The translations under genes and the position numbers were made by a program. DNA of 64,000 bases, taken from the NCBI GenBank assembly GCA_040954595.2, contig CM082591.2, positions 3,581,957-3,645,956 of the forward strand. The letters are read 5' to 3'. Position 1 is the stretch's first letter; each line of letters opens with the position of its first letter. The notes under the pieces are model-generated. The model did no database searches. It was not told where the DNA came from and worked only from the letters and a program-made list of their open reading frames with translations. Of the stretch, positions 43,751 to 64,000 are shown in pieces. Source of the stretch: Balanoglossus misakiensis (lineage: Eukaryota > Animalia > Hemichordata).

Positions 43751-43847
43751 ACATACATACATACATACATACATACATACATACATACATACATACATGT
43801 ACACACACAGACAAACAAACAGACAGACAGACAGACGGACAGACAGA
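43751..43847. repeat. Compound microsatellite (ACAT)n/(ACAG)n
   Basis: Direct inspection. Confidence 0.95.
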
Positions 43848-46800
43848 AAGGAAGCAAGAAAGAAAGAAACACGTCAGGCTTTTTTATTGTGTTCTTCGAG
43901 AGAATCAATGCGCAATATTCTGAGCAGCTCCAACAGTTTTCAGTGTCAAGATATGATGCAGACATACTGTGTGGAAAACTGACATACGTCCCCGATCTAG
44001 TATTCGAGGGCGACAAATCCATCAAGAGGTGTGTGAAGCGATTTCTTCTACGTTCGAGCCAAAGCACTTTCTTATCTGCAGGCCATACAGGGAATAGAAA
44101 ACAAATTGCTAGGCTGATTTGCAACCGATAGGGAGATTCGTTCATATCTCCGAGTAACACACTGCATTCATTCTACGCTAACAAGGTGTTTTTTTCTGGC
44201 ATGTTTGATATGGCGAAGAGATACCGCGACGTCGAACGTAACGTGATTAATCACCCAAGCTCCTTTGCGTGTAATTTCTTAGCCGCGGTAAAGAGATAAA
44301 CGCCTTGCAATTAGATAAAGCAATAGCAATTGCTTTTTATTCGCTGGTGTCAGTTGGGGCAATTTATAGAGGTGTCACTTAAGTGTTCGACGAAACGGTG
44401 TTCTGTTATGTAGTGGCAAATTATTATGTATACAGTGTATATGTAGGTCAGTCAGTCAGTTATAGTCAGTCAGTCAGTATGTAAGTTTTATATGACCGTT
44501 TAGTCTCATGATTGATCAAGTGTTTGAAGTTTACTTTCACAGTTGGAATTGTACAATAGATTACAGTGTTCCATCCAGTATGGTACAAAAGGAGGGTTGC
44601 CCATTTTGCTAGGTTATTGGTGGGTGAGGAGGGGGGCTACTCTGGCAAGGGTGACTGTAATATCCTCGTGAGTATACATCATTTTAGTGGCGCTGGTCAC
44701 CTCTTTGAGGAATTGCTAGGGGCAGGGCTGCAAACATGTAACGTGGGGTGAATCATCCCCCTCCCCCATCTAGGAAACACTGGGAGCACAATGCAAATGA
44801 GCTCACGCGGACATGCATGTGACATAGACGACTTCAGACATGCGTGTTATCTCTTCTGATTCTATTGCAAACTAGGTAGAACTGCACACTGGTCGAATGC
44901 ATGAAACTTCAATAGATAGCGAAGCAATTACGAACGTTCCCCAGAGAATTGCTAGTTGCGATTTAATCCAGAATGATATTCGCTGAATTGATTTCTTTCT
45001 TAAGCAAATTCCATTTGAGCGGAGTCTCCTTCGTGTATATTTCCAGGTTTTATATCTAAATACTGATTAATTAATTTCCTTTACAGATCTATCTACATGT
45101 GCCGGGGTAGAAATCAATTCCTTGGGGATCTGTAAAAGATTTGCGTTATTCGATCGTCAACAGGCAATTACCAATGAGCCTGATGTAGAACCGAGCATAA
45201 GCATCGATAGATCGGCACTTCTATATCATTTCATCACTTTTCAGGCTACCTGTAAAGTTTCGTGACGACGATCTGAAGATTGTCAAATGAGGAACACCGG
45301 TACATTTACTTGTACAAAGTCAACGCGCTGTTGACATTTTCCCTCAACTCGCAGGAATTTTACTAATATATGATAGGAAGCTTGGGGTCGCGTTTCAAGT
45401 AAGGTAGGTCGGGTTTCCGGAAATTCACAGTAATATCCGAAGTAAACCCGGAAGCAGGTATCATATATATTCCTGTTACGAACAAAGACTTTCAAGTTAC
45501 ACTGAAACCGTTGGTTAAAGGGGAAGATCGTCTTAACTGCACATGTGCGACTTTCTGTTTATTGTAGATACACCATCAGCATTTTCCCCACTGTTTAAAA
45601 AAGACCCCGCCAACCAATACGTGTTATATCAAAGTAAATCTGAAATGTGATAAAATGTAATGACGAGAGACGCATTGCAATGCAATTATTTGACTTGCGA
45701 TTTTCGTGTAGTGTTTACCATTTTCGGAAGCTAACTTATGACGATCGTAGTAAATTATAAAGGTAATTTTCATGAAAAACACATATATCTCGGGTTCAAA
45801 CTAGGAATTATATTTAGCTTAGTCGAATACAAAAAGGAATTTTATCTACAAAACCAATTAGAGTGGTCAATGGGGCGATGTGAGATCCATCAATCTGAAG
45901 TCATTAAAGTGTAATTTGTTTGTCATATTGTGTAATTATATGTCTTCTTCAAAGCAAATGATAAACGAGATATTTTCTGGACGACATATGAACAATTAAT
46001 TATACTGACAGACAACTTTAAACACGGGTAATAATAATTTGACATGTAGCCAAAAGATTGATACGATAAACAAATTGTCCACGATCTGCCAATACTGGCT
46101 GCATGCCCGAATTCTGGTTTAGTTTCTTGTGTGGTTTAATTTATTGTTCTAGCTTTTTTGCAATTACAAGTAGATTGCCACTTCATCCTGACATATTAAC
46201 GTATTTCTTCACACGTGAATCAGGCAATCAACTGGTCAGCAATAGACGCTAATTGAAGTGGTATAAGGTGGCAATGACGCCATCTAAATAGGAAATGTCG
46301 CACATTTCTGGAGCACATTTGCATGAAAAAATGAAGAAGACACCTAATTGAGAATGCAGATTAAAAATCGGTAACATTGAAGAAAATGGTTTCTTTTGAA
46401 GGTCTGCTAATGAATATCGCCTAGATAGATTTCATTAACTACCATGGCAAAATGGTATCGAAAAGACATATACGTTGTGGATCGATGTTTGTGTACATAT
46501 ACATGTACGTTGATGAGGTGTTATAATTTCAAATCAATCATACATTTGGAAAAGAATATCTTGTCAATATCTAATGACGTGGTGCACATCTTTATCAGTC
46601 AGTCCGTGATATGGAAGCTTTTCTAGAAGCTTGAACACACTATGTTTAAGTTGTGCTGCATCGCAAAATTGAAACCACTGAATGCAAACCAAGATTATTG
46701 GACACCTGTTTATCTCTAACCACGAGACCGCAAACCCCGAGTACGTTACTCCGAAGAGACACCACAAGTAATTTGCACATGAGTTGGTAATTTACAATGA

Positions 46801-48658
46801 TTTCTCGGTAAATAATCGTGTCTTGCGACCAGATAATGCTACTTTTGGCTTACCGCTTGCTGCAGTCACCTCTTTGCGGTAGCAGTGCTTGTTTCTCGGA
46901 GGCTGTGCGTGTATTCTCTAACCATGCAGTCGATGGCGCCAAGCAGCGATTACTTTTTCGCGATCACCGCAGACTTCTGAGCTGGGAGTTGCCATCCACT
47001 TGGTTATTTACGTCCAGGTATACATTACGTCTCCTGGCAACCACATGTGACATTTGCCTTATAAGGAAGACGCGATCTGAATAAAAATCTCGCTTCTTTG
47101 CCCTCTGGGTTTTTCGTTAGAAACCTTTTTAATCAGTACCCATGTTTTTCGTTTTACTTGTCTCGCTTAATTCACGTCTGACTGTTGATTTCGCTTACAC
47201 GATGTTTAATGCAACAATGTCATCGAGACCAGCTGCATCACGTCGCAAAAAGGTCCATCGAGGTGCCATGTTCCCGTTAGAAAATCCGAACAGATGGAAA
47301 ACAGATAACAAACTCTCACATCGATCGATTCTCATTGGGTTACCTGTTTCTACGATACACGTTACCTTCATTAACCACCTGCTAACACGACTTTGATAAA
47401 AATCCTCCGGCTCCAATTTAATTTCTGACGTTATCATCTGAGACCACATATAAGGCACGCATTCTATGACAATTTTAAACAACAATCTTGACTTTCTGTG
47501 CCCTTCTCAAGTAACATAACCGACAAATGAGCTTAATAAAACGATCGCACCACGCCTAATATCCAAGCTGCAAAAACGATCTCACACAGAAGAACAACTT
47601 CAAGACGTCAAAATATTTGTAGGTGTATGTACCATCTACATTTCCCGAAGGAGGGCGTCTTTAAATAATTGCGTAACTGTTTTGAAGGACATATGCAATG
47701 AATGATACTATGAACTCTCTGTTGTTCACGTGGAATTTGATTCATTCTCCGACCACATACTGCTAAACGAATTAATTTTTTCGCTGCAAGAAAGGGGTTT
47801 CGGGGGATCAAGGGTGCTAAGGCATTTAATCGACTGTCTGCTGCTTACAATGTTGTTCCCGCGAAACATGGCTATTCGTCGCTGACAGATCTTTTAACCA
47901 GTTGATTTCTTTTGAAATAACGGGAAAACGGAAGCATCCATACGTGCATGACGGTTGGCTTGCAAGATTTCGTGCATAAGCCCTGAGGTTGTGGGGTAAC
48001 ATTCATCTCTATGGGTATGAGTGGTAACTATCACATATCCAGTTGAAATGGCTGGTGTCATTTCGTTTGCGACTGCATGTATGGGTCCCATATGACACAT
48101 TTGCTGGCAAGTCAAATTGTAACAGCTAAAATGTACATATACTGCATCATTACGTCGTTCTTTTATCACAATTACGATATACTTTAATACAGCATGTATT
48201 GGTTGGCAAGGTCACAGAACGGTCGCACATGTGCAGTTGAGACGACCTCCTTCCTTTAAAGTCACAGGGATAAGTGTGACGAAACACGCATGTAACGGAT
48301 AGCTGTAAATGAATATTTTAATCCGGGGCTTATCATTGAGATTTGATATCCTCAAGAAGGATATCCGTTGCTGACTCTTGTAAGCTTAGAACGTTCTTGA
48401 CGTGACAAGCTGGCGATGAGACCGACGTCGTTTTGCATTGCGCCGCCGCGTGCTCAGTTTTAAGACTCGCGTTCTGTTTGTAAACTCATCCTGTTCTCGG
48501 AGATTCGAGAGAACTTGCATGGCCCAGTCTAGCAGCTTATAGTTCACATTATTGGTGAAGAAAGCGTGAAAGGGAGAGAGAGGTACATAGACCAACAGAT
48601 GTGGGCACACATAGACACACATAGACATAAGGACGGACGGACGGACAGACAGCGAACA

Positions 48659-48661
<3 letters not shown>

Positions 48662-48688
<27 letters not shown>
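48662..48688. repeat. (CA)n microsatellite
   Basis: Direct inspection. Confidence 0.95.
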
Positions 48689-48689
<1 letters not shown>

Positions 48690-51600
48690 CAACACGATAC
48701 ATGACGGTCTCATCATGTTCAAACTAGGAACAAAACTTGACAGTTGCTATGTATGAATTTCAGTCGCTGAGAAATGCGTGCGTCGCGCACATGATCGGAA
48801 AGCTGTCATTCGAAATTGCCCTACATTCTCCTTACGCAGAGCGCAGTTGGATCGCCACTATAACCACTGTTTTCACTGTGAGCGAAACCCACATATTAGG
48901 ATGTCGTAATTGACTGTGTCAGTGAGCTAGGATTGTACTTAAGTGACAATATTATCCTGCAAAGTCAGCAGGATCCATCATTACGCTGCACGGTCCAATT
49001 GACGGGGAATCTGAGACAATCTGCTAATCATTACTCCTTCAGCATGTTGCGAGTAACGAGCATGGAGAACAGCCGACAAAAACAGGAAAACCACATTTGG
49101 TTTTTACAAAACTGTAATGCCCCATTTTCTAATCCGCTGAACAGTGTACAAACACGGCCCTGGCCTTGGCAATGATATCGCCAAAGCGCCGACGTGTTAT
49201 GTGGATGAAACACTAACTAAGCCTTTTTCTGGTTCCGAAACTATCTTTCGATAACACTTCGGGGGTTTGTGGATATATGTACACGTAGTGTGGCACCAGT
49301 CTGCTCCACAGAAGCAACATTCCTTCTGTAATCTTTAAGCGGCATTCGGATTACCGGGAGGTTATAGAAACCCGGTTAGCACCAGCACTGAAGTCAGCGC
49401 TCAGGGCGCCATTTCGACTTCCTTTTGATTAAGACAATTATGTTCGAGAGCGGGGCTGAGCGTTTGTATTTAAACTGAACAGTTCCAATCAGATTATTTT
49501 CTGTAAGCAACACGGGGATCTTCGTTATCATTTTGCAATCAGTTGAACAGCAGGGGATGGAGTGTGCGATTTAGCTTTATCTCGCCGATCTGATTTTTTT
49601 GCATCGATCGCGCCCAGGAGCTCTCAAAAATGGAAACCTCTTATAAAGTTTCGAAAATGATCGCAGGGCAAACAGTTGAATTGCTGCAAGTCTGGTACTG
49701 TTGACACATATTTAAATTTCATGTTTTTTGCTCATTTATTTCACACTGACCCAGCTCTGTTGTCGCATCTTTTCAAATTACTTTTCTACATGTTTTTACT
49801 TATGATTATATTCTTACGTTAACATCCACGAAATTACACCTGACGCCACACTGACACGCATGTAATCCCAACGATGAACAGGTTAACGAGTTTTCGGATT
49901 TCATTACTGTTCTTTAAATGCGCTCTTCCCATGAATCGCTTTGGCTGCATCGCTATATACGCATTGCTACTTTATCAAGAAACAATAATGCACGTAGATG
50001 GTGCACACACAAATATTATTTCAACATTATTTCAACGCTTGTACATTATTTCAATGCTTCTGTAGTTATTACTGAGCATGTTTTTTTATAATTTTGGGGA
50101 AATAACTTTATAGCCATCTGTAAAGAGCATATCGCGAGAAAATCAAATCAACAGGATGATGTGATAAGGAATGTCTACTAAGGCTTTTAATAAACTCCGT
50201 GTGTCAACCACATCTCGGAGGGCAAACAGTTCCTTTTTACGTACCGTTATCGTAAACTTCAAGTGGTCAATTGATACGATTTGATTTGCACGTTTGTGTG
50301 TTAAACGATCTCATTACCCGCCGGTGCCCCATTCAGGCAAATCACCCGATGTACACTACACCCTGAAATCATAAAGAGCGTTCTCACCTTTGGGTAATCT
50401 TCATGATGAGCGAGTGACTGTGGCTGACTGTATGGAGAGGGTCTCTTCAGAACCTGCGTTCGGTGTCCGGGCAGCATCAGTCTTCATCGATGCCGTGTAA
50501 CATCTGCACACGTCGGTGTCTCAAGTCGAACCTCTTATGCACCTACGAAGTTCATCCTATCGAGCAAAATTATATAAAACCAGAATGAATATCTTTCGTA
50601 AGTCACTTGTCCGGTCTTTGACCCGTCACGTGACACCACTAGAGAACGATAGTACTTCAAAACGCATATGCGCAAGGCTGTCTTATGAAGTACATGTATA
50701 GGGTGCCCATATGAACTTCTTGTTGCTATTTCTTATGAAATGATCTCAGATAACGTACAACTCGCAGTTCTCGTGACGCATCACAATATCGGGAACACCA
50801 CAATATGCATTGACAAAATCATTTATCCACGGATAAAAACTGCACAGGCGCACCTATAGCATTCAATCTTGCTTTCACAATTATTGTATTTCGATTTCCT
50901 CTCGTCTTTGCATCTTTCAATTTACGAAATGGACATAGAACAGATCACTATATTACGATTAACTAAACCTCATTAATCAAAATAACTAAGTAGCCAATTC
51001 TGATGTGATGTTTAGAATATGTCTGATAAAAGCACATTATAGACATTTGGCCCGATGTGTACGACATACCACTGAAGACTTTTGACGTTGATTTTTAATT
51101 GTTGTGTATCACAGTGATATACGTATTTGTACATCGTCATCACCATTGTCTAACACTAGTCTGAGAAGAAATGTTCGTACATTATCCACGATATTAAGTT
51201 ATTCGGACTATTCTAATGATTTCATCCCCACCATCTGATAGGAATGTGTTCAAAACACCTCCTGGTTATGCAGCTCGTCCATTCCTGCAACACTCAACCC
51301 AAAGACACGTAACGCATTGTCGTTCCCCCTATGGAACCTACATGTACGTAATACACGAAATTATGAATGTATGCAATATGCCGGAAATGTCTACCATTTA
51401 TACGTGAATTGATGAGCCCGGGATTTGCTCCGTCGAGTCGGAAAAGTGGCGGAATTAGTCGGTCCACCTTTTAACCCACTTTCTCTGGGAACTGAATTGA
51501 CTTCATTTGGCGGTGTTCAAATAGTGCGAGTCGCAGACGACACCCAGCTGCCAATCACCGTGGACCACTCTAATCATCCCATTCCAAATGAATGGTTAAT

Positions 51601-52806
51601 TTATTGAATTAAACAGTGGCTGGTACATTCCGATGAAAGGGGTGAATGACAACTCATCACCGCTGTCTCGTCCGCTTGGTGTGCTGTACTCGGCCGGGAT
51701 GGACGGGGGGGGCTGAAAGGATCCAGACACTCGTGGAGAGTCACGTGATCCGCTCTCCGCCACTCGCGCACCAGTCGTGTTGCGTTCAACAACCGCTGGG
51801 AGTGTGAAAGCAAGCAAGCCGTCGCGATGTTGTCACGCGATTGCCTAACTGCGTGTTCAATTGCCCGGCGAGCGCAAATAAAAAAGTTTGCAGAGAAACA
51901 CCCGTCTGTTTGGATGAGCGTTCGCCGCAGACTTCACGTCGCAGAACCGCGCATCGGATCATTGACGAATGTCGTGACTGCTGGCGGACCACAAAAAAAA
52001 CTCGCCGTCTGGGTTAACACAGGACGTGCACGTCTTCCGTTCTCACCCTCTCATGTAAATGAGCTTTCCTGGAAACGTGGAACGAATACCCTACAAACCA
52101 TTTCCTCGGGACGTTCGTGTTATGTCACTTCCTTGTTAATGTTAATTGTACGAGCGAGGAAATTTGAGTTGGAAACACACAAAATTAAAAACTTTACATG
52201 TCTTTAGGCCCGGGATATCGGAAACGATCCGAATTACCATAATGGCATGTGCAGACTTGCGATTTACTCAAAAGACGAACAGCTTAGCTCATTAATACAG
52301 ACAATGGTTTAGAAGCACTGGAGCTTATTTGTTCCTTTACACTTTCATTTCACTGTCGGTAAAGTTTTCTTCTGCACATTAACTTTCGTTTCCAACACTT
52401 ACCTTCATCCGTAGTGAATGTCCTTTATCCGGCTTTAATTCTGCAGATAACTCTAGTGATTTGAAATCTGTAGATTTTGTAAACTCTTTAGACGAGATGT
52501 GATCACTAGGGTCCTTTTCATGTGTCGCAAAGTAGTAGGCGCTAAAAATAAAATTGCTTGTGTTATCAGAAAAGTGATAATAATACGCGGAGTAAATAAT
52601 TGCTTGCGTACTTATTATTTTTGGCGCGACCAGACGTCATTCAACACCCCATGGACCTCACGAAAGGTCATTGTGATTTTACAAGTGTGAAACAGGTTTT
52701 TACGCAATCTGTATATTTTTAAAAATTGAAGAATATCTGGGCAAACATAATCCAATCATACCCTTAAAAGGGACAAATCGTTAACATCTGACAATAGTTT
52801 GGCTAT

Positions 52807-52945
52807 ATAAGCCTGATATCAATAAACTCATTAAAATGCTTAGACAATTTCACATGTTATGTCCATGTGTCTGACATAAGCCCTATATCTATAAATTCTT
52901 ATTAAAACGCTTACACAACTTCACATGTTATGTCCACGTGAGTGT
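52807..52945. repeat. Tandem duplication, unit ~70 bp
   Basis: ataagcc..tatc.ataaa..attaaaa.gctta.acaa.ttcacatgttatgtcca.gtg occurs twice. Confidence 0.8.
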
Positions 52946-53169
52946 CGGATATGGTCCCGTGTTGTGCGCTTATGGCACTTGAGGAGAACGACAATCCTTC
53001 TTTTTTTTTAGTTGGCCTACTGGTGGCGCTTTAATTTCCTTACCTGTTTTCTGGTCTTCCCATGAACGGATGGTTGCTGCCATGCGCCACGGTGTGGCAA
53101 GGTTGTCATAAACTGTCGCGCTGAGAGGCAAATTAGAGAAAATGTTAAATTGTTGTCCAAACAGACCTT

Positions 53170-53447
53170 ACAGGGCGATAACCGTCTTATGCGTGTGGTA
53201 ACCAGAGAATCTCCTTACAAAAATTGTATACAGTCAATGCCATAAGGCAGTGAGTCGGCCTAGCAACAGACAGGATGGTGGCGAACATATTTGTGTCGGA
53301 GATTGGGGAAAGACAGCATATTTGGAGAAAAGAAGGGACACAACTAAAGTCTACTTATACGGTGGGCATGAAATATGGAAGGAAGCGAAGGCAGTCCGTG
53401 ACTATTTGAATGCTTCGAAGTCAAAATTTGCAGAACATTTGGAATGA
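53170..53447 (+). pseudogene. Possible decayed Mutator-like transposase fragment
   Basis: SQCHKAV..EHICVGDWGKTAYLE resembles the C..C...HxCxxNWxxS(S/A)xxME pattern of Mutator-like transposases; the frame has stops upstream. Confidence 0.3.
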
Positions 53448-56222
53448 ACGTATTGATTGTACACACGAATGTACGCACATGCGCATAAGACGACCGTCGT
53501 CCAAATAGTATTTACGCAACTCAGAAAATCATCCGAAGACTTTCCAAATGACAACGTTTTAGCCCCTAGAAGTCGTCCAGCCGTAGTTCCCGCCAATCTC
53601 CGTATGACCTCGTTTAGAATCATGTGAATTATTTCACCGAACCGTAAACAACCCCATCAAATGTTGCCAATGCTATCGGAATTCTAAGGAATATTGCTAC
53701 ATTATCATTTCGGTTCGCCAGAGGTCATGACCTGAGAGAAAGTCTTCTGAGCGGCCGGCGCGGAGTACCAATAGAAAGTTCTATACGGGTCATATATATA
53801 GTTTATTTGCGTACCCCAATAAAAGATTAATTTTCAGAATACATCATTTTAAAGTTTATGTTCTATCGACAGTTGATCTCAAAACGCGCGTACATGGCAA
53901 GGCCCGCTCCTGGTTAATGGCGATTGCAAGGAAGGATGTGTAGCTGTACCTGAGTCGACTTTTTCACTGGTACGATTCTGGATTTTCCCGCCTCCATCAA
54001 TTAATGGTAGATTTTCGCTTGGGATGTTTATGCAGAGCATTGTTTGCGTTCCCGCCATGAGGGGCCACGGCGCCGCACGTCCGCCCGCCTCCGCAGAGGC
54101 GCAGACATATATTGATACAATTTGTATTCCCACGCCATGCACATATATCTCATTTACATGAACACAATACACTGTACAACCAAGTCCGGCCAGCACTGCA
54201 GATATTTAGAGAAAAATAAAAGCCACGTTAAAGTTTTCTACCGACGATTTTCAAATTAAAACAGATTTCATAGCATACGGTGTCAGATAAACTTTCATTC
54301 TCATATGATCTGGTGTCGCTAACCTGTTCTGCCATGAATATGCATGATGCAATCGCCCGGCTTCGCGCACGTACTAAACACATGCACATGATATGCAGTA
54401 ATACTTCAAGACGTGGAACCAATAGATGTCTAAGTATATCGTCTACGTAGTGCATACTTGGCAAATCTCTGCTTCGAAAATTCACTAAGGATGTAAACTA
54501 TTACCTTAACAAACCTCCAAACATCGGGAATCGTACGTTTTGCTCAACGTGTCGGTGAAATTTGCTGTGCCGTTCGCAGCTACCAGACAACGCACATGTC
54601 TCCTCAAGGCTCAGGTCACGAATGGCTACCCATAGTCCTTAGCGAAAGCATGCTTTATTGCGCAATCCCCGAGCCAATCCGAGATTATCTCCGATCGCTT
54701 TTGCTCGTGTTCGGATCAAATGTTTCAATTGTTTGTTGAGATTGTTTGAGTCTATAGGCCCGTCACTTGATGCGAAAATATTGGGAAACTTGATCGAAAC
54801 AGCTTTCGTTGATTTGCACACAATTTTTGTAGCGCTTGTGATGATCATACATGTATGCCCATACTCTGTGCTTCTACGTAGGTTACCATGTGGTAACGTA
54901 ATTACTTACAATATGGTAGACGGCTTTTAAAAGCAGTTTAGGCGGTTTCATGGTTTTATGCTGTTGGGCGACTTGTTGAAATGCTGATGTGTTTGGAAAG
55001 TAAACACATTGTACCATGCGGATGTGCCAAATAAATAAATAAAGGGATCAACAAAAAGAATCTGTATAAGCAATACTGGTGATAAACTATGATGAAGGCG
55101 GGAGTTGAAATTAGCACAAATAACTGAAAATCTGTGACTGGCTAGATCTGATTTTGCCATGGTAACTATAGCTAATTTTCGAAAGGTGACCGTAGGCCTA
55201 TAACTTTAACGCACTGTGCATTCAAAACCAGAGTTCACTGAAGTCTGTAAGTAGAACAGCCGGTAATAAAGTCGAAATAAGCCTTAGGAAAACGAAGAAT
55301 TCAAATAAAAAATTGTGATTTAATGTTATCTCTACAGTCTATAGAAATTCTGGAAATGGTTTCGCGTGGTTGTATGCACACACAAAAAGTGTCATACTGG
55401 GGACCACGTTACCCTGGTGACGTATTTCAGAGTGCACATTTTGCCATGATTATACCCAGCTGTTACGTTATCCGGATTAATGTATGGTCTTTTTACCATG
55501 GGCCTTAGTGATGACGTTCCTGTCCCATTCAGCGAAATGACAAACGACCAGAATCTGTACAGGTTGGTACAACATACATCTGACGAGTAATGCGGCATGT
55601 CTGGTGATAGACACGTCCAACAAAATGCACGATATAATGTGTAGGTTATTGGCAATAACCTGCACATTATCGCTAGACTTTTGACATTATTTACTAAACT
55701 GTGTACATATATCTAGGTAATTGTCGGACACGCATAATACACATTGTGGTTGGTGTTAGGCCTAAATCAAGATTTCTGTAGCAAAATAAACTTGCCCTTT
55801 TATTTAGCAACAACCATATGAAAAAAAAATAGCTAGAAAAAAAATTGAAAACACACAAAAACAGATCTAGAGAACCTAGTACATTAACACTGACAAAAAG
55901 AAAAATGCGTCGTCGCCCCATTTTGGTTAAAAGCATTTACCAGAAACAATTTTGTTTTCGGTTTAACCTATTATGCTGCACGTTTCAAAAGAGTCGTCAA
56001 ATACTGAATGACTATGAAAAAATAAACTTGGGATGCGTCCAGGCGCTCCGTAAAGGAAAAAAAATGTCCCGTCCTGGCGGGATTTGCATCTCATTTTAGT
56101 AATGATAGTGTGGGTTTATGGAATAGAAAATGATGACAGTTTAACCAGCTGCTGCCTGATGAGTTGGTATGGTAGACTGAGTAGAATGGGAACGCAGATG
56201 TGACGTACTGAAAGATCCGGGT

Positions 56223-57452
56223 TCAGGGTCTAGTCATCCACGAGAAATTACGGTGAACTGTTTCTGCCAAGAGGCGGTCGAAGGGCCTGTAAAAGTCCTT
56301 CAGATCTTGAGTGACTTTCTCGTCAATTGCCGGGTGTTCTCGCCCCTTGTTCAGGGGCAGACAGTGGTTTCTCGGGAAAGTGACGCAGTGGAGGCCCCTC
56401 TCCTCGTTAAACTCGAAATGCTCCTCCCGGAAAAAGTGCTGCAGGCCCAGGAAGGTTTCGATTCTCTGGAGTTCCGTTGTGGGATCCTCAGATAATCTGT
56501 CTCCGTCCACGAGGTGTATTCTCTCGCGGGGGATGTAGTCATACCACCGCAGCAGATGCTTGATGTAGACCCCCAAATCGATGATTTCGTTCAGTGTGTC
56601 GAGACCCATCTCTCGGTGCATCACAGATTTCTCGAACGTGTCCGCGATGTACTTGTGCAGGCCGAAGACTTCAATTTCGCTCGTCCGCTTTCGGTTATAC
56701 TCAAGGTAGTCAGACACCGCCCTGCGCACGGGGTCGCACAAGGAAATGATGAATTTCGTCTCCTTGGGCAAGTCTTTGGACAAGATCTTCGGGAGGTCGT
56801 GCGGCCGGAATAGGTACGACGGGGTCTTCTCCATGGTTACCTGGTAGGGCGTGGTGTACGGCATCTGTTTGCGGTAAGAGTCGTAGCCGGCCCTGAACGT
56901 TTTCGCCGTGTCGAAGAAGTGAACTTCCAGAATCGGCCCGGTTATGTTCGGGTGGGTGGTCAGAAAATGCTGCAGGGCTCCCGTGCCGCATTTCCTCACC
57001 CCGAGTGTGATGACCTGCGGGAGCCGTTGCAGGCACTCCCGGCGTTTCATCTCCCCCTTGTCGAGCAAACGTTTCGGCACGTACACTGGCATCCCGGGCT
57101 CGTAGCAGGAACTCCCGAACTTGGCCTTCAAGTAGGCGTCTTCCTCGAAGCTTGCTGGCCACGTGACCTCAATCCTCTCTTCGGCGGTTGGCTCTTCATC
57201 CACAAGAGAAGAATACAGATCTTCATCCGAACCATCGGACATGGACATGCTCGCCATGACGACCAGTGGATCCTCTGTGGCGCGCGGCCGCGCTGTTTCC
57301 ATGGAGCGCTGATGGTATCCATCGCTGACATCGACCTTTTGCTCGGGACACTGCATGTCGATGGACAGGAGGAAGATGGACACGTAACAGGTCGAGACGA
57401 GGAGAAGAAAGAGGAGGGAATTCTTCAAGAATAAACATGTCCGGCCGATCAT
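56223..57452 (-). CDS. HS3ST: Heparan sulfate glucosamine 3-O-sulfotransferase family protein (type II Golgi membrane sulfotransferase), 409 aa, intronless CDS
   Basis: N-terminal TM anchor (LLFLLLVSTCYVSIFLLSI), acidic stem, then RLPQVITLGVRKCGTGAL (5'-PSB loop), EVHFFD (catalytic Glu/His/Asp), EKTPSY, DPVRRAVSDY (3'-PB) and C..C..KGREHP. Orthology within the family is not resolvable here. Confidence 0.93.
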   Translation of the reverse strand: MIGRTCLFLKNSLLFLLLVSTCYVSIFLLSIDMQCPEQKVDVSDGYHQRSMETARPRATEDPLVVMASMSMSDGSDEDLYSSLVDEEPTAEERIEVTWPASFEEDAYLKAKFGSSCYEPGMPVYVPKRLLDKGEMKRRECLQRLPQVITLGVRKCGTGALQHFLTTHPNITGPILEVHFFDTAKTFRAGYDSYRKQMPYTTPYQVTMEKTPSYLFRPHDLPKILSKDLPKETKFIISLCDPVRRAVSDYLEYNRKRTSEIEVFGLHKYIADTFEKSVMHREMGLDTLNEIIDLGVYIKHLLRWYDYIPRERIHLVDGDRLSEDPTTELQRIETFLGLQHFFREEHFEFNEERGLHCVTFPRNHCLPLNKGREHPAIDEKVTQDLKDFYRPFDRLLAETVHRNFSWMTRP

Positions 57453-57891
57453 CCTTTCCTGTGGACGGACGTTGCTACAGACCTACACGCAGTCTGGTTG
57501 TGTCTGTCAACTGTAGTTTCTCTTTCCCTGCAACCTGTCCACGCATGTGGCGCCTGTGGTGCCGACATTTCATTGAAAAGAGGACATGCCCAGCCCATAA
57601 AATGATAAATGGTCGTCCCTTTTCTCCCAATCTGTGCACAGATTTGCGCGAGGGGAGCTTACAACTGAATTAGCATAAACATATATGTCGAAACGTTGAA
57701 TACGAAAAAAGTGTCACTCATCATGTAACATCTGGTCGGGCGTCGAAAAGCCACCTTAAAATAATCACAATAAAAAAATACATGTGACATGCTGGGATCG
57801 TTTCTTCTTTTCCACGATAAAAATTCGTGCTTACATGCAGCACCAATGCATCAAAGTATTATCATATACACGTTCAAAGGTGTAGTATTTA

Positions 57892-58204
57892 AGCAATAAA
57901 ACACCCCCAGCCATGGTATATCACGAGATTTTGACCAGTTCACGACATATACGCACGAGCGATAGCGAGTGCGTATATGGAGTTGAACTGGTCAAAATCG
58001 AGTGGTATACCATGGCTGGGGGTGTTTTATTGCTATTATATTATGCCAGTATATTGAAACTTTGCATAAAACATTTTTAAAAGGAATTTTCTTTAACTAT
58101 GATATATGACTGTGGTATATGGCTAATATATCACGGTCACGTGTCGTGTCTCGACCAATCAAATAGCGTGATTTACACCATCAATATACTGGTATAATAT
58201 AATA
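57892..58204. mobile_element. Non-autonomous palindromic (MITE-like) element
   Basis: Imperfect long palindrome 57892-58034 (agcaataaaacacccccagccatggtata.../...tataccatggctgggggtgttttattgct) followed by a second inverted pair, tattatattatgccagtatattga (58034-58057) / tcaatatactggtataatataata (58181-58204). Confidence 0.75.
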
Positions 58205-58239
58205 CCTGATAACAAGATACCATACTTGAAATTTGAATG

Positions 58240-58245
58240 TTTATT
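58240..58245 (-). terminator. Candidate polyadenylation signal AATAAA for the ArsS-like gene
   Basis: The minus-strand AATAAA I could find downstream of the SECIS, about 300 nt past it. Confidence 0.5.
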
Positions 58246-58548
58246 GATGTTATATGAAGCTGCGTATATGTAAACTAATATTGATTTACAAATAATATAT
58301 ATGTGTGTGTAAAAAATAGACAGGTTGAAATTTTGCATTTAACACACACATGAAAAAGACACATAAAGTTGACATTTCATTGAATTTTGTCTTACAAACT
58401 CACACATACACACGTGTTTACTTGTGTGTGTGATAAAATATACACCAGCCATGGAGGTATCGTCTTTTTAAGACTCTTCCTCTGTAAATGGTTACATAAA
58501 TTTTCAGTGGGTTATTGTTTCACTGGAATGGCCCTAAACAAAACTTGT

Positions 58549-58633
58549 GCTTCCACATCAGAGTGGCATCGAAGATTGGCTACCTATTATTTCAAAGTTT
58601 TACGCCAATCTTGTCATAAACTGAGTTGAAAGC
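58549..58633 (-). promoter_or_regulatory. Eukaryotic SECIS element (selenocysteine insertion sequence) in the 3'UTR of the ArsS-like gene
   Basis: Minus strand reads GCTTTCAACTCAG-TTT-ATGAC-AAGATTGGC-GT-AAAA-CTTTGAAATAATAGGTA-GCCAATCTT-CGAT-GCCACT-CTGATGTGGAAGC. It has an AUGAN/NGAN core (58617-58613 / 58571-58568), a perfect 9-bp helix II, apical AAAA 11 nt after the core, and helix I (GCUUUC..AC.UCAG / CUGA.GU.GGAAGC). Confidence 0.9.
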
Positions 58634-58871
58634 AACAAATATGGTCTGGCCTCGTAACATCATGATTCATGTCACATATGATTCATATGCTAGACATCGT
58701 GACTGAAATTTGTAATTATACTTCACATAAAAGTTACAAACAATTGCTGCATTACAAACACCAACGTAAGCTGCCCAAATTGTATACATTTTGGAATTCT
58801 GCGAGTACTCTTTTTGAACTCTGACCCCATGACAGCATGGTTACTGAGCTCTGACCCCATGACATGCACAG

Positions 58872-59026
58872 TTACTGTGCAGTGACCCCCTGTCAGCTGC
58901 TTCCCATACCGGCTGTGCATCCAAAGCAATGGTTGTCAGTTGCGATTCTGATATCGTGGAGATCCTCTGCCGATTCAATATCCCATATTGAAAGGAAATT
59001 AGATTTCACTTGTCTGTGATGAGCAG
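58872..59026 (-). CDS. arsS: ArsS-like gene exon 8, coding part (…IATDNHCFGCTAGMGSSUQGVTAQ*) containing the Sec UGA
   Basis: Acceptor gtctcttttaatag|CT; reads CAT TGC TTT GGA TGC ACA GCC GGT ATG GGA AGC AGC TGA CAG GGG GTC ACT GCA CAG TAA. Confidence 0.92.
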
Positions 59027-62000
59027 CTATTAAAAGAGACAGAAACATTTAGTCATTTTTTTCTGATAGTCCTAAACAGTATTTTGGTGTCTGCAATTCC
59101 CTTGTGAAAATGTTCTATAGAATAAACATTATCATACTCACCCAATTTCTTTGCACTAACACCAATATCTAGCTGTTGATTCAAATCACAGTCAAACAAT
59201 TTGCCATTGTAGTTGACACTTAGTGTATTGTAACACATCAGACCTTCGGCAGTAGTAGGGTTGAAATTACGAACCAACAAATCCATGTACCCTTGCAACT
59301 CATTTCTGGAAAGTAAGAGAGGACATTGAACTTTGTCACTTTATTTTTATTGTAAAGTCATAATGAATACACGTCCATCTTAACTGTAGCGTGGCAACGA
59401 AGCATACACGTTAATCTGATTGATATATGATTTCTTACTGTGTATCTCTTTTTGTGTATGTGTGTTTGTGGATGTCTGTATGTATATTTCTTCCTTACCT
59501 TCTGTACAGAAAATCGGCGAATCGTTTGATGGGCACATTGGTGAGTGTGAACAGTCTGTTGAACTCTATCCCGAAAGTCTCCAGCAGTTCTTCCTTGTAT
59601 TTCTCCTCTAGTTCCTTCTGAGGTGGTGGAAGAAAACCACCTGGCAAGGTATAATATCATACAGACCATTGGTTGAAACACAGTGAGAAAGTTTTTTGGG
59701 GGGACTTACACGAAAGCACAAAAAGTAAAACTGAAAATATTGCGATTGTGATGCCAACAAGCCACCATCAGCTGTAACAACGACTACTTACCCAATGGAT
59801 TATAAATCAAATTGAGCTCCAGACCAGTACCATCTTTGCCGTATCCCAACGAATTCAGCACAAGCAAAGCTTGGATACTTTTATCGAATACACCCTGACC
59901 CCTCTGCAAGTTGACATTCTTCTTACTGAAAAATAAATACAGGTAGATTATTTTAATGATACAATGTCAAGTCACACGTATTTATGATTTAACTCATTAG
60001 AGTCCCATTGGAAAGCTACTTGCACATATAAATACTTGCTGACATCATTTTAGGTACATACCAGAAATTGTTATTGAAATTTTGACTGGTTTTATTCTCT
60101 TTCTATGCAAGGTGACAGCAGATCAGAGCAAAAGCACTCGAAAATAATCAAAATTACATATTACTCTATTTCATAAAAACGGCATTAAAAACAGAGTAAG
60201 ATCATTATCATCTACTGGGGGCGCTATAACACAGACAGAAGTTTGTTTGTTTCTGTGATCAGAACATCTGTCATCATGACTGGGGTGTTTTTAACCAGCC
60301 ATATGGCAAACAGTCTAACAGGTGTTAATCTGAATAGTTTTTTTTTTTGCAAAGTCACACTATTTTTATCACTGACTTATAAATACAGAATTCTATTTTT
60401 TTTAAATATATGTTTCCCAGAGACTGATTTCCTTCTTCTTGGTATATTTACAAAACGTTTTTTTTTTCAATGCTCTAAGTCAAAGCCGATATAAATTAAA
60501 GTAGACATTTTTGCTTTATATTTGTACTTAAATTACATTGACATATAATATATATGTAAAAATCAGGAAAATTACAATATTTTAAATTTTGAGTAAACCA
60601 CTAACTTAAATGTTCACAAAATTTAAAGCAGAAATACTATTGAATACAAAAACTGCAATATCTAGTCAGACATTTACCTGTAGCATGGCAACGAGGCAAA
60701 AACTTTAATCTGATTGTCAGCTAAGAATTTAGCGGTGTCCTCCTGACCTGGCTCCAACAATCCTGTCAGATTGCACCTGTCAATCACTTGTTTGCCGAGG
60801 TCTCTTCCAGACTTGGCGAGATACCGGAATTCCTGGCACAGCTCTGGAGCACCCCCTGGCATGAAGAGAAAAATATCCAGACATTTATCACTTATTTTCA
60901 TATTTTATATTTAATTTTTTTTAATTTTAATTTACACACAAGCTCAGGCCCCAGACAAAAATGGCAGCTGACAACACTGAAATTCCAATTGGTTTACATC
61001 TTGTCAAAAACAAAAATTAGTAAAATTTTTATTGACAAATACTAAGTTGTGAACCCTAATACATTTATGCATACTACAGATGGTGTGAGCTCAGCACACA
61101 CATGAAATCGTTATATCAAAATAGTCTGCATAACAAGATGGTCACCTAACTAATTTACATACCCTCTAACTTTTGACTTATTTCCCTGGGGTTTATTGTC
61201 CTATGTAAACAACTTCAGTTTCCCATAAGACTTCAAAATGCATGATTAAATGCCTAGTCATAGCTACTATTCTTGACAATTTCCGACCAGCAAAAAATAC
61301 ATGGGCAGTATATTTCATTATATACTCCATTCTTCACAATAAAAAATGCAATATCATCATTACCGGTACAGATATTCAAATGAGCCCAGCCCTAGACACT
61401 GAAACAGCCCTGACCTGTGATATTGGATAACAGTATTTAATCTAAGAAAACATAACCTTTGACATCAGACAACATAACCTTTTCAAATTGCACTGGGCAA
61501 GTGCCAAAACACAGTCAGACTGTGTCAATAATCTTATCATAAAATGTAACAGTGTGTGTAATGTACTTGCTTTTTGTCATAACTGTGTTAAACAACAACT
61601 GTCTCGTCTCGTGATCTGGCCATATGTCAAGTCACAATCACTTCAGAATCTGGTTGCCTGTGTTATGACATAGAACATTTATACCTACAACCACCACAAC
61701 CATGGAAACTCCAAAGTCTGCACTGGAGGTGACAAGGGGGGGTTAAAATCACAACATGGAAAGCTATGTGTTTTTACCTGTCAAATCTAATGTATGAATG
61801 GATGGACTCTTCCGAAGGAGGTCAATGCACTTTTCAGCTGTTTGCCTGCTCATCATTTCTTTCCTCTTGGGGGAGGACTCAACATGGCAGTGGTTGCAGG
61901 CTTGGTTGCAATACAATCCAATATTCAACTGAAGTACGTCTGTCTGTCTTCTCTTCAAGAGACCTTCCACTATAAAAAAATATATAATCATAATTGTATT

Positions 62001-63140
62001 AGTTAGGATATTAAACTCATTAAACTTTTTTCACATTTTATAATTTTTTCTGTTAAAAAGTTTCAGAATGACCCATCATCACTGAAGCTTATGAACTCCC
62101 ATTTCTTAAACATGGCAAAAATCGGCCATCTTGAAATTGTGTCGGCCATCTTGAAATTGTGTCGACCATATGAGATTTTCATCACTCACTTAGGTAGTCA
62201 TTGCAGCAAGCACAGTCAGCTTTCCTCTAAAATATCATTGGATGACATTACCTGACATTTCATGCTTCTTCAGCTGTTGTTTAACAAATTCTCTGAAATG
62301 CGGCACTCCTAGATTGTGCAATGCTCTCTGCCTTTGCTTTCTCTCCTCTCGAGTCAGTTTAGCCTGGCCAAGCTTTCTCAGGTTTTCAGCTGTGATTTTG
62401 AAGTCCTCGTTTTCTTCCATGTACTTCAGTGTTTCGGGAATTAGAGAGCCCTGTATACGACGAAAGGATCAATCAATCAATCAATCAACTGGTGATTTAG
62501 CAGTAAAGGCAAACCCTACCAACCAAAACAGGTTGCACAACTCATAGTTTAAACCTCAAACGTCAATGTGTGATGTTTGAGGTTTAAACTATGAGTTATG
62601 CAACCTGTTTTGGTTGGTGAGTAAAGGACCAACGAAAACCAACAATGCACAATCGCATATTTTGGACCTTCTATAACAAAGTGAAATTCGTCCTCAAGTA
62701 AAGACACGTATGTCAGTTTCACTTTTTTATCACTGGAGCGCCTATAACTCTACATCCGATTTTAAACAGATTGTAATTTGTACGGCGTTTCATATCCCAA
62801 AACTTTCGTTTATATTGGGGGATTCGGGTGAGGGGTCGCAATTAATCCAGTATTAATCCGTTTAGCCTACCTGAGCTCTTTTCTCGAGGTTCTTCAGTCC
62901 AATCCATGTTGGTTCTCTACGCGGCGGGGGTTTCTCGGGTCGCTTGAGTTGGTGTTGGTGCGTGTTGACGTCGGTGTTGTAGTCTGGTAGCTGTGTACTC
63001 TTCACGGCTGCTTCGCGCATTTCGCTGGACGTGCTCAAGCGAGACGAAGCTATCGGCTGGATGAGCGACAATATGCGAGGAGTCCGACAACATATTGTCA
63101 TACTTCGCGAAACGTGTCTTTGCGTGAGAAATAACGCCAT
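58872..63140 (-). CDS. arsS: ArsS-family radical SAM / DUF3641 selenoprotein (arsenosugar biosynthesis radical SAM homologue), 8 exons, 477 aa, Sec at residue 471; complement(join(58872..59026,59142..59305,59499..59640,59792..59925,60678..60855,61778..61969,62252..62450,62871..63140))
   Basis: All 7 introns are GT..AG with consistent phases (0,1,1,2,1,2,1); exon lengths sum to 1434 nt = 478 codons. The spliced product has LQLNIGLYCNQACNHCHVESSPKR (CxxxCxxC), DLTGGAPE, IDRCNLT, ASLPCYS, QRGQGVFDKSIQAL, LNLIYNPLGGFLPPPQ, FNRLFTLTNVPIKRF, LMCYNTLSV..GKLFDCDLNQQL and HCFGCTAGMGSS[TGA]QG, recognised as ArsS/TIGR04167 + DUF3641 motifs. TGA at 58893-58895, TAA at 58872-58874. Confidence 0.93.
59142..59305 (-). 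CDS. arsS: ArsS-like gene exon 7 (NELQGYMDLLVRNFNP...LMC...DCDLNQQL...)
   Basis: Acceptor ctcttactttccag|A, donor TTGG|GTGAGT. Confidence 0.93.
59499..59640 (-). CDS. arsS: ArsS-like gene exon 6 (GFLPPPQKELEEKYKEELLETFGIEFNRLFTLTNVPIKRFADFLYR; start of DUF3641 region)
   Basis: Acceptor ccttgccag|GT, donor GAAG|GTAAGG; the correct frame differs from the ORF-track call 59358..59681. Confidence 0.93.
59792..59925 (-). CDS. arsS: ArsS-like gene exon 5 (KKNVNLQRGQGVFDKSIQALLVLNSLGYGKDGTGLELNLIYNPL)
   Basis: Absent from the ORF track and translated by hand; acceptor tatttttcag|T, donor TTGG|GTAAGT. Confidence 0.93.
60678..60855 (-). CDS. arsS: ArsS-like gene exon 4 (GGAPE motif to ASLPCY)
   Basis: Acceptor ttctcttcatgccag|GG, donor TACAG|GTAAAT; joining to exon 3 rebuilds DLTGGAPE. 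Confidence 0.95.
61778..61969 (-). CDS. arsS: ArsS-like gene exon 3 (radical SAM CxxxCxxC motif)
   Basis: Acceptor tttttttatag|TG, donor ACAG|GTAAAA; encodes LQLNIGLYCNQACNHCHVESSPKRKEMM...TLDLT. Confidence 0.95.
62252..62450 (-). CDS. arsS: ArsS-like gene exon 2 (GSLIPETLKYMEENEDF...KKHEMS)
   Basis: Acceptor tatacag|GGC, donor TCAG|GTAATG; open and in phase with exons 1 and 3. Confidence 0.87.
62518..62618. repeat. Near-perfect ~100-bp palindrome in intron 1 of the ArsS-like gene
   Basis: accaaccaaaacaggttgcacaactcatagtttaaacctcaaacgtca, short loop, then tgatgtttgaggtttaaactatgagttatgcaacctgttttggttggt; arms of about 47 bp with 2 mismatches. Confidence 0.9.
62871..63140 (-). CDS. arsS: ArsS-like gene exon 1 (putative mitochondrial presequence and linker)
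   Basis: ATG in aacATGg context; donor CAG|GTAGGC at 62870; 90 codons, phase 0; first 39 aa are R/S/T/L-rich with no D or E. Least conserved exon, so least certain. Confidence 0.78.
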
Positions 63141-63537
63141 GTTCAGTCAACGCACTGGCATGAACTTTGAAGTTACGTGACACGCATCCTTATCACGGAC
63201 TGTGCATATACAATGTGCGCCAAGCTTGGCCCAAAGGAGGAAAATATCAGTAACCTTTGGCCAATATCGGATACTATACGGTTCTTTCGTTTTTGTATTA
63301 AACGTAAACTGTCGACTGCAGTATCAAACTTTACAAGTAATTTTGAAACAAGAAATGTGGCCAATTGCAAATTTTACCTAGAAATTATTATCGGTAGGTA
63401 GTTTATTACACGTATTAATTTAGATGCAACGATCAACCAATCCAGGACTTATGCTCTGCCAATGTCTTAGTACGGAATGTAGAAGGGAAAAGGGAACGTG
63501 CGAAAGCATGGCTCTTGAGCATGCTTGTATTGTCACA

Positions 63538-63551
63538 GCGCCCCCTAGAGG
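63538..63551. promoter_or_regulatory. CTCF-like motif ~400 bp upstream of the ArsS-like start codon
   Basis: GCGCCCCCTAGAGG, one mismatch to the CTCF core GCGCCCCCTNGTGG; motif match only. Confidence 0.4.
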
Positions 63552-64000
63552 TAAACAGTAAAGAAATACCACATCTATTTGCATATGATGAATCACAACA
63601 TCTGTTTTAATATGAAGACACAGTAACCTTTTTTCTAGTGTTTGACTACAACTGTTGGCTCATTACGGCAACTGGATTAATTTTACTCGAGTTTTTGATT
63701 CATATTAAAAGGATATCTGATGTTTCCTCAACAAATAAAGTGACCATTACTTCATATTTCAAAAGGAAGAAAAAAACAAACAAGGGGTAAATGAAACAGA
63801 CCCCATTTCTTTAACAGCGGGCAGAACACACACAATTCAAATATAAATACATTTTGATGTCAAGAAAAAAAGGTACAAAATTAAGAAAATAACTGTTCTC
63901 CAAAGAAATACACTTTGAAATTGCAAAAAATGTATGTCTATCGAGGAAAAATCACTGTGGTCGATTACATCACAATGGAGAGGAAGACAGAACTGTTTTT

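What the first reader, a model, noticed from the sequence alone, without database searches (positions are those of the whole stretch)
58549..63140. Hidden animal radical SAM selenoprotein: ArsS/DUF3641 homologue with in-frame UGA and SECIS
Seen in sequence: eight phase-consistent exons give a 477-aa radical SAM protein ending HCFGCTAGMGSS-TGA-QGVTAQ-TAA, with a canonical SECIS core about 280 nt after the TGA. Established: bacterial ArsS-family proteins (TIGR04167, C-terminal DUF3641) end in roughly HC(F/Y)GCTAGxGSSCxG, and some carry Sec at that last Cys; this family is not among the 25 human selenoproteins. Inference: the TGA is decoded as Sec471, so automatic annotation would truncate the protein by 7 residues and miss the redox/arsenic-binding residue. 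From memory, a Sec-containing radical SAM gene has been listed in some algal or mollusc selenoproteome surveys, so novelty for this lineage needs checking; I know of no functional characterisation in animals.
Basis: partly seen in the sequence, partly recalled or inferred. Interest (0 to 1): 0.95.

Follow-up and report, generated by a model that had tools for sequence, protein, structure and literature searches.

The report
Acorn-worm ArsS radical SAM selenoprotein
This eight-exon acorn-worm gene encodes a relative of the bacterial arsenic-sugar enzyme ArsS, and its apparent UGA stop very likely codes for selenocysteine; it is predicted to work in mitochondria and may let marine invertebrates attach arsenic to sugars themselves.

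Summary
Observation confirmed. Eight GT-AG exons give 477 codons with one in-frame TGA (codon 471, 58895-58893). In 152 related loci that carry the motif, this codon is TGC, TGT or TGA, never TAA or TAG. The five residues after it match the Cys homologues' tail better than those after any other of 2,709 TGAs in the window. A SECIS-type hairpin 276 nt downstream is the only strict hit on either strand. Similar hairpins follow 15 of 20 TGA loci but 0 of 31 eukaryote-like Cys loci. The protein belongs to TIGR04167/ArsS and groups with acorn worms. Of 29 named animal homologues, 21 database entries stop exactly at this column; echinoderms and Priapulus have Cys. Sec is about 95% likely. ArsS chemistry, mitochondrial import and arsenic binding by Sec are inferred, not tested. 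The bacterial Sec form is in print. I recall an oyster 'RSAM' selenoprotein (Baclaocos 2019) but could not open that paper. This scan earlier noted ArsS in Ostreococcus and in bacteria, not an animal Sec form. Verdict: new member of a known kind.

The parts
62871..63140 (-). coding exon 1 (aa 1-90): basic, acid-free first 35 residues (predicted mitochondrial presequence), then the start of a eukaryote-type N-terminal extension
   Evidence: composition R+K 5, D+E 0; alignment
62252..62450 (-). coding exon 2 (aa 91-157): conserved helical N-terminal extension of the eukaryotic proteins
   Evidence: helical in the orthologue model
61778..61969 (-). coding exon 3 (aa 157-221): start of the radical SAM core
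   Evidence: TIGR04167 E 1.4e-20
61887..61910 (-). CxxxCxxC motif (C177, C181, C184), ligands of the SAM-binding [4Fe-4S] cluster
   Evidence: invariant in 75 of 75 aligned homologues
60678..60855 (-). coding exon 4 (aa 221-280)
59792..59925 (-). coding exon 5 (aa 280-325)
59499..59640 (-). coding exon 6 (aa 325-372): start of DUF3641
59142..59305 (-). coding exon 7 (aa 372-427): C396 and C411, predicted auxiliary-cluster ligands
58872..59026 (-). coding part of exon 8 (aa 427-477 and TAA): C460, C463, the in-frame TGA and a six-residue tail
58893..58895 (-). in-frame TGA, codon 471, inferred selenocysteine
   Evidence: column holds only TGC/TGT/TGA in 152 loci; tail score
58557..58625 (-). 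eukaryotic SECIS element, type-II-like (core 58617-58613 and 58571-58568, helix 58612-58604 with 58580-58572, AAAA at 58601-58598)
58240..58245 (-). only AATAAA in the 670 nt after the stop; candidate poly(A) signal, downstream of the SECIS
   Evidence: use not shown

Best explanation
This is a spliced animal gene of the ArsS (TIGR04167) radical SAM family whose UGA471 is very likely read as selenocysteine under its 3' SECIS, giving a 477-residue enzyme that is predicted to enter mitochondria and most likely to join the adenosyl group of SAM to dimethylarsenite, with Sec471 inferred to hold the arsenic. Steps: (1) shown: exon structure, single TGA, SECIS-type hairpin, family membership. (2) Strongly inferred: SECIS-directed insertion of Sec; without it the protein ends at Ser470. 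(3) Inferred from composition: the first ~35-40 residues are a presequence. (4) From established radical SAM chemistry: C177/C181/C184 bind a [4Fe-4S] cluster that cleaves SAM to a 5'-deoxyadenosyl radical. (5) Inferred: C396/C411/C460/C463 fill an auxiliary Twitch-type cluster, which leaves Sec471 free on a mobile tail. (6) Inferred by analogy with ArsL and from the affinity of selenolate for As(III): the tail captures DMAs(III) and presents it to the radical, giving DDMAA, the arsenosugar precursor. The confidence given is for this whole chain; for the Sec reading alone it is about 0.95.
For: Sec: 152 of 160 loci carry the motif, and the next codon is TGC 74, TGT 56, TGA 22, TAA or TAG 0; after TGA the frame goes on with a Cys-type tail. 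Of 183 proteins from two searches, 88 end exactly at the motif, 50 continue with Cys, 45 lack the motif, and none has another residue there. SECIS-like hairpins lie within 400 nt after the stop in 15 of 20 TGA loci, 0 of 31 eukaryote-like Cys loci, 4 of 97 other Cys loci and 1 of 20 TGA loci read antisense. Family: exon-wise TIGR04167 scores add to about 340 bits, a rough sum; whole homologues score 400-410 against a cut-off of 300, among them Ptychodera, 78% identical to this protein. Bacterial homologues sit beside arsenosugar-type genes: TIGR04283-type in 43 of 80 loci, TIGR04282-type in 31, ArsM-like in 28. ArsS adenosylates DMAs(III) to DDMAA (PMC13598754, passages). The C-terminal Cys motif of ArsL binds As(III) and is not a cluster ligand (bioRxiv 10.1101/2024.02.01.577332, passages). 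A model of the sea-star Cys orthologue matches SPASM/Twitch radical SAM enzymes (SkfB Z 18.2, rmsd 2.9, 234 aligned; BlsE Z 17.0, rmsd 4.4, 254 aligned) and has a low-confidence tail (last block pLDDT 47). N-termini of nearly all animal homologues are basic, acid-poor and unconserved.
Against: No transcript, peptide or activity data for this gene. The SECIS scores under Rfam's gathering threshold, and Rfam found no SECIS in any of the 22 TGA loci, so their support rests on my own pattern. Its looser version was set after I had looked at those loci; the stricter version finds 5 of 22. The loci are not independent (many diatom-like, one near-duplicate pair). I saw no DNA for the named animal homologues; only one TGA locus looks animal (L053, best match a copepod). 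The characterised cyanobacterial ArsS is not in my tree. The animal gene has no arsenic-pathway neighbour that I found: the next long ORF is a sulfotransferase. Whether this animal has an As(III) methyltransferase or the later arsenosugar enzymes was not tested. The ArsM-like representative scored below every ArsM cut-off. No targeting predictor was available, and no coordinates were available to measure Cys-Cys distances.
Confidence: 0.55

Rival explanations
1. It is a true selenoprotein, but the eukaryotic clade does other radical SAM chemistry in mitochondria (another metalloid, thiol or cofactor substrate), or the family's main job is not arsenosugar synthesis.
For: Eukaryotic members form their own clade (100/99) and carry a ~110-residue conserved extension that most bacterial matches lack. 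No pathway partner was found beside the gene. The gene is kept from a sponge to amphioxus and in fresh-water mussels.
Against: Core identity to bacterial ArsS-family proteins is 46-55% for the sea-star orthologue, all motif residues are kept, and animal proteins pass the equivalog cut-off by 100 bits. The algae that carry it include brown algae, the classic arsenosugar producers (own knowledge).
Confidence: 0.27
2. It has ArsS activity and Sec, but Sec471 serves as a ligand or redox partner of the auxiliary Fe-S cluster rather than as the arsenic-binding group.
For: The Cys/Sec column is as strictly kept as the other C-terminal cysteines. Twitch/SPASM clusters vary in their ligands (own knowledge).
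Against: Four other invariant cysteines are enough to fill a cluster. The tail is low-confidence in the model. The ArsL tail precedent points to As binding.
Confidence: 0.13
3. TGA471 is a genuine stop (or a sequence error), the protein ends at Ser470 and the hairpin is chance.
For: 88 database proteins end there. The SECIS is under Rfam's gathering score.
Against: A true stop would drift to TAA/TAG and lose the downstream peptide; neither is seen in 22 TGA loci. The tail is the best of 2,709. Hairpins go with TGA and not with Cys. Contigs of two runs show TGA (one sample, perhaps the source).
Confidence: 0.04
4. The gene is bacterial contamination or a recent horizontal gain.
For: The family was defined in bacteria, and no vertebrate is among the named top hits.
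Against: Seven spliceosomal introns, a eukaryotic-type SECIS, GC like the rest of the window, and a tree that recovers acorn worms, echinoderms, amphioxus and bivalves each as supported clades.
Confidence: 0.01

Closest known systems
ArsS, arsenosugar biosynthesis radical SAM (seleno)protein (NCBIfam TIGR04167; Pfam DUF3641 C-terminus); DDMAA synthase of Cheng et al. 2021, as cited in PMC12159101 and PMC13598754
   Same: Collinear match over profile positions 2-302 of 303; CxxxCxxC; four C-terminal cysteines; the final GxxC/U motif.
   Different: Spliced nuclear gene with a 3'-UTR SECIS; about 155 extra N-terminal residues (presequence-like part and a conserved helical extension); no arsM or glycosyltransferase neighbour found; activity untested.
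Bacterial 'radical SAM domain protein' selenoprotein, TIGR04167, motif GxxU, example AAR34688.1 (tables in PMC13188914 and PMC9312934)
   Same: Same family and the same GxxU motif at the C-terminus.
   Different: Listed there as a predicted prokaryotic selenoprotein. All 79 bacterial genome loci with the motif in my sample have Cys, whereas most named animals appear to have Sec.
'RSAM' selenoprotein of the Pacific oyster selenoproteome (Baclaocos et al. 2019, J Mol Biol 431:4381; the name and the listing are recalled, the paper was not readable)
   Same: Magallana gigas has this family, annotated as uncharacterised and cut at the same motif (XP_011440909.2, XP_034299572.1), so a Sec radical SAM gene in oyster would most likely be this orthologue.
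   Different: Not verified. I recall no link to arsenic chemistry, mitochondria or hemichordates there.
ArsL / RCCLKC-tail radical SAM enzymes (NF040542)
   Same: Works alike in part: radical SAM C-As bond formation with a C-terminal chalcogen tail, which in ArsL binds As(III).
   Different: Different family; ArsL transfers the aminocarboxypropyl group and has three tail cysteines. The exons hit no ArsL model.
Twitch/SPASM radical SAM enzymes SkfB, SuiB, BlsE, EpeE
   Same: Predicted fold of the orthologue (Z 15-18) and a weakly aligned C-x14-C stretch.
   Different: 13-18% identity; other substrates; no Sec tail. A shared fold does not show function.

Membership tests
ArsS (TIGR04167) | HMM score at or above the curated cut-off of 300 bits | tested here: met
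   Indirect: six exon scores add to about 340 bits (a rough sum, not a whole-protein score); the 78%-identical Ptychodera protein scores 400.8.
ArsS (TIGR04167) | CxxxCxxC radical SAM motif and C-terminal DUF3641 | tested here: met
   C177/C181/C184; DUF3641 above gathering in exons 6, 7 and 8.
ArsS (TIGR04167) | final Cys or Sec in the GSS-C/U motif | tested here: met
   TGA in that column.
ArsS (TIGR04167) | genomic link to arsM and arsenosugar glycosyltransferases | tested here: inconclusive
   Seen for bacterial homologues. Not expected in an animal; ORFs of 90 aa or more in 40000-58500 showed one long ORF, a sulfotransferase. No whole genome was held.
ArsS (TIGR04167) | makes DDMAA from SAM and DMAs(III) | not testable with these tools
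   Needs an enzyme assay.
Eukaryotic selenoprotein | in-frame UGA aligned with Cys in homologues | tested here: met
Eukaryotic selenoprotein | conserved coding sequence after the UGA | tested here: met
Eukaryotic selenoprotein | SECIS in the 3' UTR, same strand, at a workable distance | tested here: met
   Rfam SECIS_1 E 0.0029 (28.7 bits, below the gathering score of 35), 276 nt downstream, unique in the window. That it lies within the mRNA is not shown.
Eukaryotic selenoprotein | Sec machinery in the genome (tRNA-Sec, eEFSec, SBP2) | not testable with these tools
   No genome held.
Eukaryotic selenoprotein | selenium found in the protein | not testable with these tools
   Needs 75Se labelling or MS.
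Twitch/SPASM radical SAM | auxiliary [4Fe-4S] cluster in the C-terminal domain | tested here: inconclusive
   Four invariant cysteines and fold similarity; geometry and metal content not measured.
Mitochondrial matrix protein | cleavable N-terminal presequence | tested here: inconclusive
   Composition fits in this protein and nearly all animal homologues; no predictor or localisation.

The most novel reading that the evidence does not exclude
Marine invertebrates from sponges to amphioxus carry an ancestral mitochondrial selenoenzyme that builds the arsenosugar precursor DDMAA, so part of the arsenosugar and arsenolipid pool of shellfish and other invertebrates is made by the animal and not only eaten. 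It would be an animal radical SAM selenoenzyme that uses selenium to handle arsenic, cut short by 7 or so residues in every Sec-type database entry that I saw, and switched to Cys in the echinoderm ancestor and in priapulids.
Probability: 0.4. Interest if true: 0.8.

Novelty: new member of a known kind. Interest (0 to 1): 0.52.

Why it matters
It adds a non-vertebrate-type family to the deuterostome selenoproteome and shows a systematic annotation error: none of the 232 retrieved proteins carries U, and the Sec-type entries stop just before the last conserved residue. If the ArsS activity holds, marine animals could make arsenosugar precursors themselves, which bears on seafood arsenic speciation and selenium-arsenic interplay (arsenosugars in animals are usually taken as dietary; own knowledge). 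The natural pair of acorn-worm (Sec) and echinoderm (Cys) orthologues, 60-65% identical, makes both the function and the role of Sec directly testable.

Tried and rejected
First exon boundaries were off by 1 nt at four places and broke the frame; corrected. No RNA holder listed for the locus, which is no evidence either way on expression. A 2-nt insertion behind 63032 (exon 1) in one contig of one run could not be examined further; it may be half of a longer indel or a second allele and stays open. Rfam found no SECIS in the 22 TGA loci. Plain alignment of 12 SECIS candidates was too poor to build a model. MFE z-scores do not single out the SECIS. No solved structure is close by sequence (0 hits; best E 3e-6, core only). 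No viral homologue in one scan. The Atlas search of the N-terminal extension gave only scores of 0.76, below the lead threshold. Splicing the TGA out was rejected: the nearby GT...AG spans only 19 nt and would remove the conserved GMGSS. The animal clade is one side of a branch but not strongly supported (93/75); 22 of the 80 bacterial loci were used in the tree, and unnamed proteins were left out. No vertebrate, tunicate, insect, nematode or cnidarian name appeared in the 120 listed rows of either search; only the top rows are shown, so this is not absence. Literature: ten searches listed no paper whose title or abstract describes an animal Sec form. Term searches inside PMC3753652 (text, section 13, 2 of 3 supplements), PMC7539508, PMC3473315, PMC6627142, PMC13134290, PMC12822975 and PMC7435645 found no 'radical SAM' or 'RSAM' eukaryotic selenoprotein. 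The algal paper lists 'FeS oxidoreductase' and 'FeS reductase' families that I could not match to sequences, as its supplement could not be read; UniRef names some algal and mussel homologues 'Fe-S oxidoreductase', so one may be this family. The two papers most likely to hold prior art (Baclaocos 2019; Tico and Mariotti 2025) are not in the library.


Full report
The observation. Reading 58000-64000 on the minus strand and joining exons by coordinates gives eight coding exons, seven GT-AG introns and 477 positions with one internal stop, TGA at codon 471 (58895-58893), followed by QGVTAQ and TAA. Exons 3-8 match TIGR04167 (ArsS) in order over profile positions 2-302, and exons 6-8 match DUF3641. 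The closest named protein is from Ptychodera flava, 78% identical over 466 aligned positions, then Saccoglossus at 69%, so the window most likely comes from an acorn worm. The splice model rests on signals and homology; there are no RNA data.

Is the TGA selenocysteine? Four lines were tested. First, of 183 proteins from two homology searches, 88 end exactly at the GSS motif, 50 continue with Cys, 45 lack the motif (fragments or other models) and none has any other residue. Second, in DNA from 80 metagenome and 80 prokaryote-genome loci, 152 carry the motif and the next codon is TGC in 74, TGT in 56, TGA in 22 and TAA or TAG in none; the TGA loci continue with tails such as QGTTA. Third, against a profile of the 50 Cys-type tails, the five residues after this TGA score 15.8 bits, the best of 2,709 TGA triplets in the window, next best 8.6. 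Fourth, Rfam SECIS_1 matches 58557-58625 at E 0.0029, though at 28.7 bits against a gathering score of 35. The element has the AUGA/GA core, a 9-bp helix and unpaired adenines, 276 nt after the TGA, and is the only hit of my strict pattern on both strands of the window. In related loci the strict pattern finds 5 of 22 TGA loci, 0 of 21 eukaryote-like Cys loci and 2 of 109 other Cys loci. A looser pattern, set after I had inspected those loci, finds 15 of 20, 0 of 31 and 4 of 97, leaving out loci with under 150 nt downstream. Rfam itself found none there, and the loci are related, so the contrast is support but not an independent count. Contigs from one DNA sample, perhaps the window's source, carry no other letter at the TGA or SECIS. 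I put Sec at about 0.95.

Distribution and origin. In a 68-row tree (45 named eukaryotes, 22 of the 80 bacterial loci, and this protein), eukaryotes are separated from bacteria at 100/99. This protein joins Ptychodera and Saccoglossus at 100/99; echinoderms, amphioxus and bivalves each form supported clades; animals as a whole get 93/75, neither shown nor rejected. That fits vertical descent. Of 29 named animals, 21 end at the motif (sponge, copepods, bivalves, brachiopod, annelid, nemertean, amphioxus, acorn worms) and 8 have Cys (7 echinoderms and Priapulus). I saw no DNA for these; the TGA is directly seen mostly in alga-like loci and one copepod-like locus. Oyster and mussel RefSeq entries are 'uncharacterized' and cut at the motif, and no retrieved protein carries U.

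How it most likely works. Whole animal homologues score 400-410 bits on TIGR04167 against a cut-off of 300. Bacterial homologues lie beside TIGR04283-type, TIGR04282-type and ArsM-like genes in 43, 31 and 28 of 80 loci (one representative per cluster scanned, the ArsM-like one below its cut-offs). ArsS joins the adenosyl radical of SAM to DMAs(III) to give DDMAA (PMC13598754, passages; PMC12159101, passages). Seven cysteines are invariant in 75 of 75 aligned sequences: the CxxxCxxC triad and four C-terminal ones (C396, C411, C460, C463 here). An AlphaFold model of the sea-star Cys orthologue, not of this protein (mean pLDDT 83.4), matches SPASM/Twitch enzymes, and its tail is low-confidence. 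I infer an auxiliary cluster on the four cysteines and a free, mobile Sec471. In ArsL a C-terminal Cys motif is not a cluster ligand but binds As(III), and its loss stops C-As bond formation (bioRxiv 10.1101/2024.02.01.577332, passages); this is the model for the Sec tail. The first 35 residues hold five basic and no acidic residues, and nearly all animal homologues look alike in this while differing in sequence, which suggests mitochondrial import. None of these functional steps is shown. The whole chain gets 0.55; another mitochondrial reaction 0.27; ArsS activity with Sec as a cluster or redox partner 0.13; a true stop 0.04; contamination or recent transfer 0.01. I could not test whether the animal has an As(III) methyltransferase; DMAs could also come from food or microbes.

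What is known. The Sec form of TIGR04167 (motif GxxU) is tabulated among predicted prokaryotic selenoproteins (PMC13188914, passages; PMC9312934, passages). Ten searches of the open library (listings only) and term searches in seven eukaryotic selenoproteome or methods papers showed no eukaryotic radical SAM selenoprotein by that name. The algal survey lists Fe-S oxidoreductase families that might be this one; its supplement was unreadable. I recall, with about 75% confidence and without having seen the text, that the oyster selenoproteome in Baclaocos et al. 2019 includes an 'RSAM' family; that paper and the 2025 metazoan review are not held. The oyster does have this gene. Earlier notes of this scan cover ArsS in Ostreococcus and in bacteria and bacterial Sec-tail radical SAM genes, none an animal Sec form.

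Verdict. It is best filed as a new member of a known kind: a known family, known to use Sec in bacteria and probably already listed in a mollusc. What looks unreported in what I could read is the link of the animal selenoprotein to arsenosugar chemistry, its likely mitochondrial location and the Sec-to-Cys switch in echinoderms. These make a clear experiment possible. Interest 0.52; 0.8 if synthesis by the animal is shown.

Noticed in passing
window 59380-59422 (-), intron 6: A 43-nt, 86%-identical copy of the 3' end of exon 4 (60674-60716), with the donor site and the Cys codon changed; looks like a decayed partial exon duplication.
   Followed up: no
window 62003-62198, intron 2: A ~194-nt high-copy repeat (depth thousands of times the flanks) that another haplotype of the same sample lacks, with 57 other letters in its place; contains a 20-nt tandem duplication.
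   Followed up: no
window 62518-62618, intron 1: 48-nt inverted repeat, 96% complementary with a 5-nt loop, MITE-like.
   Followed up: no
window 63032, exon 1: One contig of run X1 shows a 2-nt insertion here; it would shift the frame unless compensated, and two indel rows were not shown.
   Followed up: no
window 56223-57482 (-): Single 419-codon open frame with a Sulfotransfer_1 domain (E 2e-19), heparan-sulfate 3-O-sulfotransferase-like by recalled motifs, about 750 nt downstream of the candidate poly(A) signal, same strand.
   Followed up: partly
window 63538-63551 (-): Sole match in the window to a recalled CTCF-like core pattern, about 400 nt upstream of the start codon.
   Followed up: no
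window 58815-58864 (-): A 20-nt direct repeat with 30-nt spacing right after the stop codon; both copies hold an AUG.
   Followed up: no
P0001 and P0184; P0190 and P0191; P0107 and P0123: Ptychodera flava, Magallana gigas and Priapulus each have two gene entries of this family; duplicates or assembly haplotypes.
   Followed up: no
L016:1151: A eukaryote-like homologue whose frame ends right after the conserved Cys, with no tail.
   Followed up: no
L134:2544-3731 and 17 other bacterial loci: A SelD-associated-type pyridine nucleotide-disulfide oxidoreductase (TIGR03169-like, just under cut-off) lies beside arsS in 18 of 80 loci, many of them Psychrobacter.
   Followed up: no
protein residues ~50-155 (exons 1-2): Extension conserved from algae to animals, helical in the model, absent from most bacterial matches; no family found.
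   Followed up: partly
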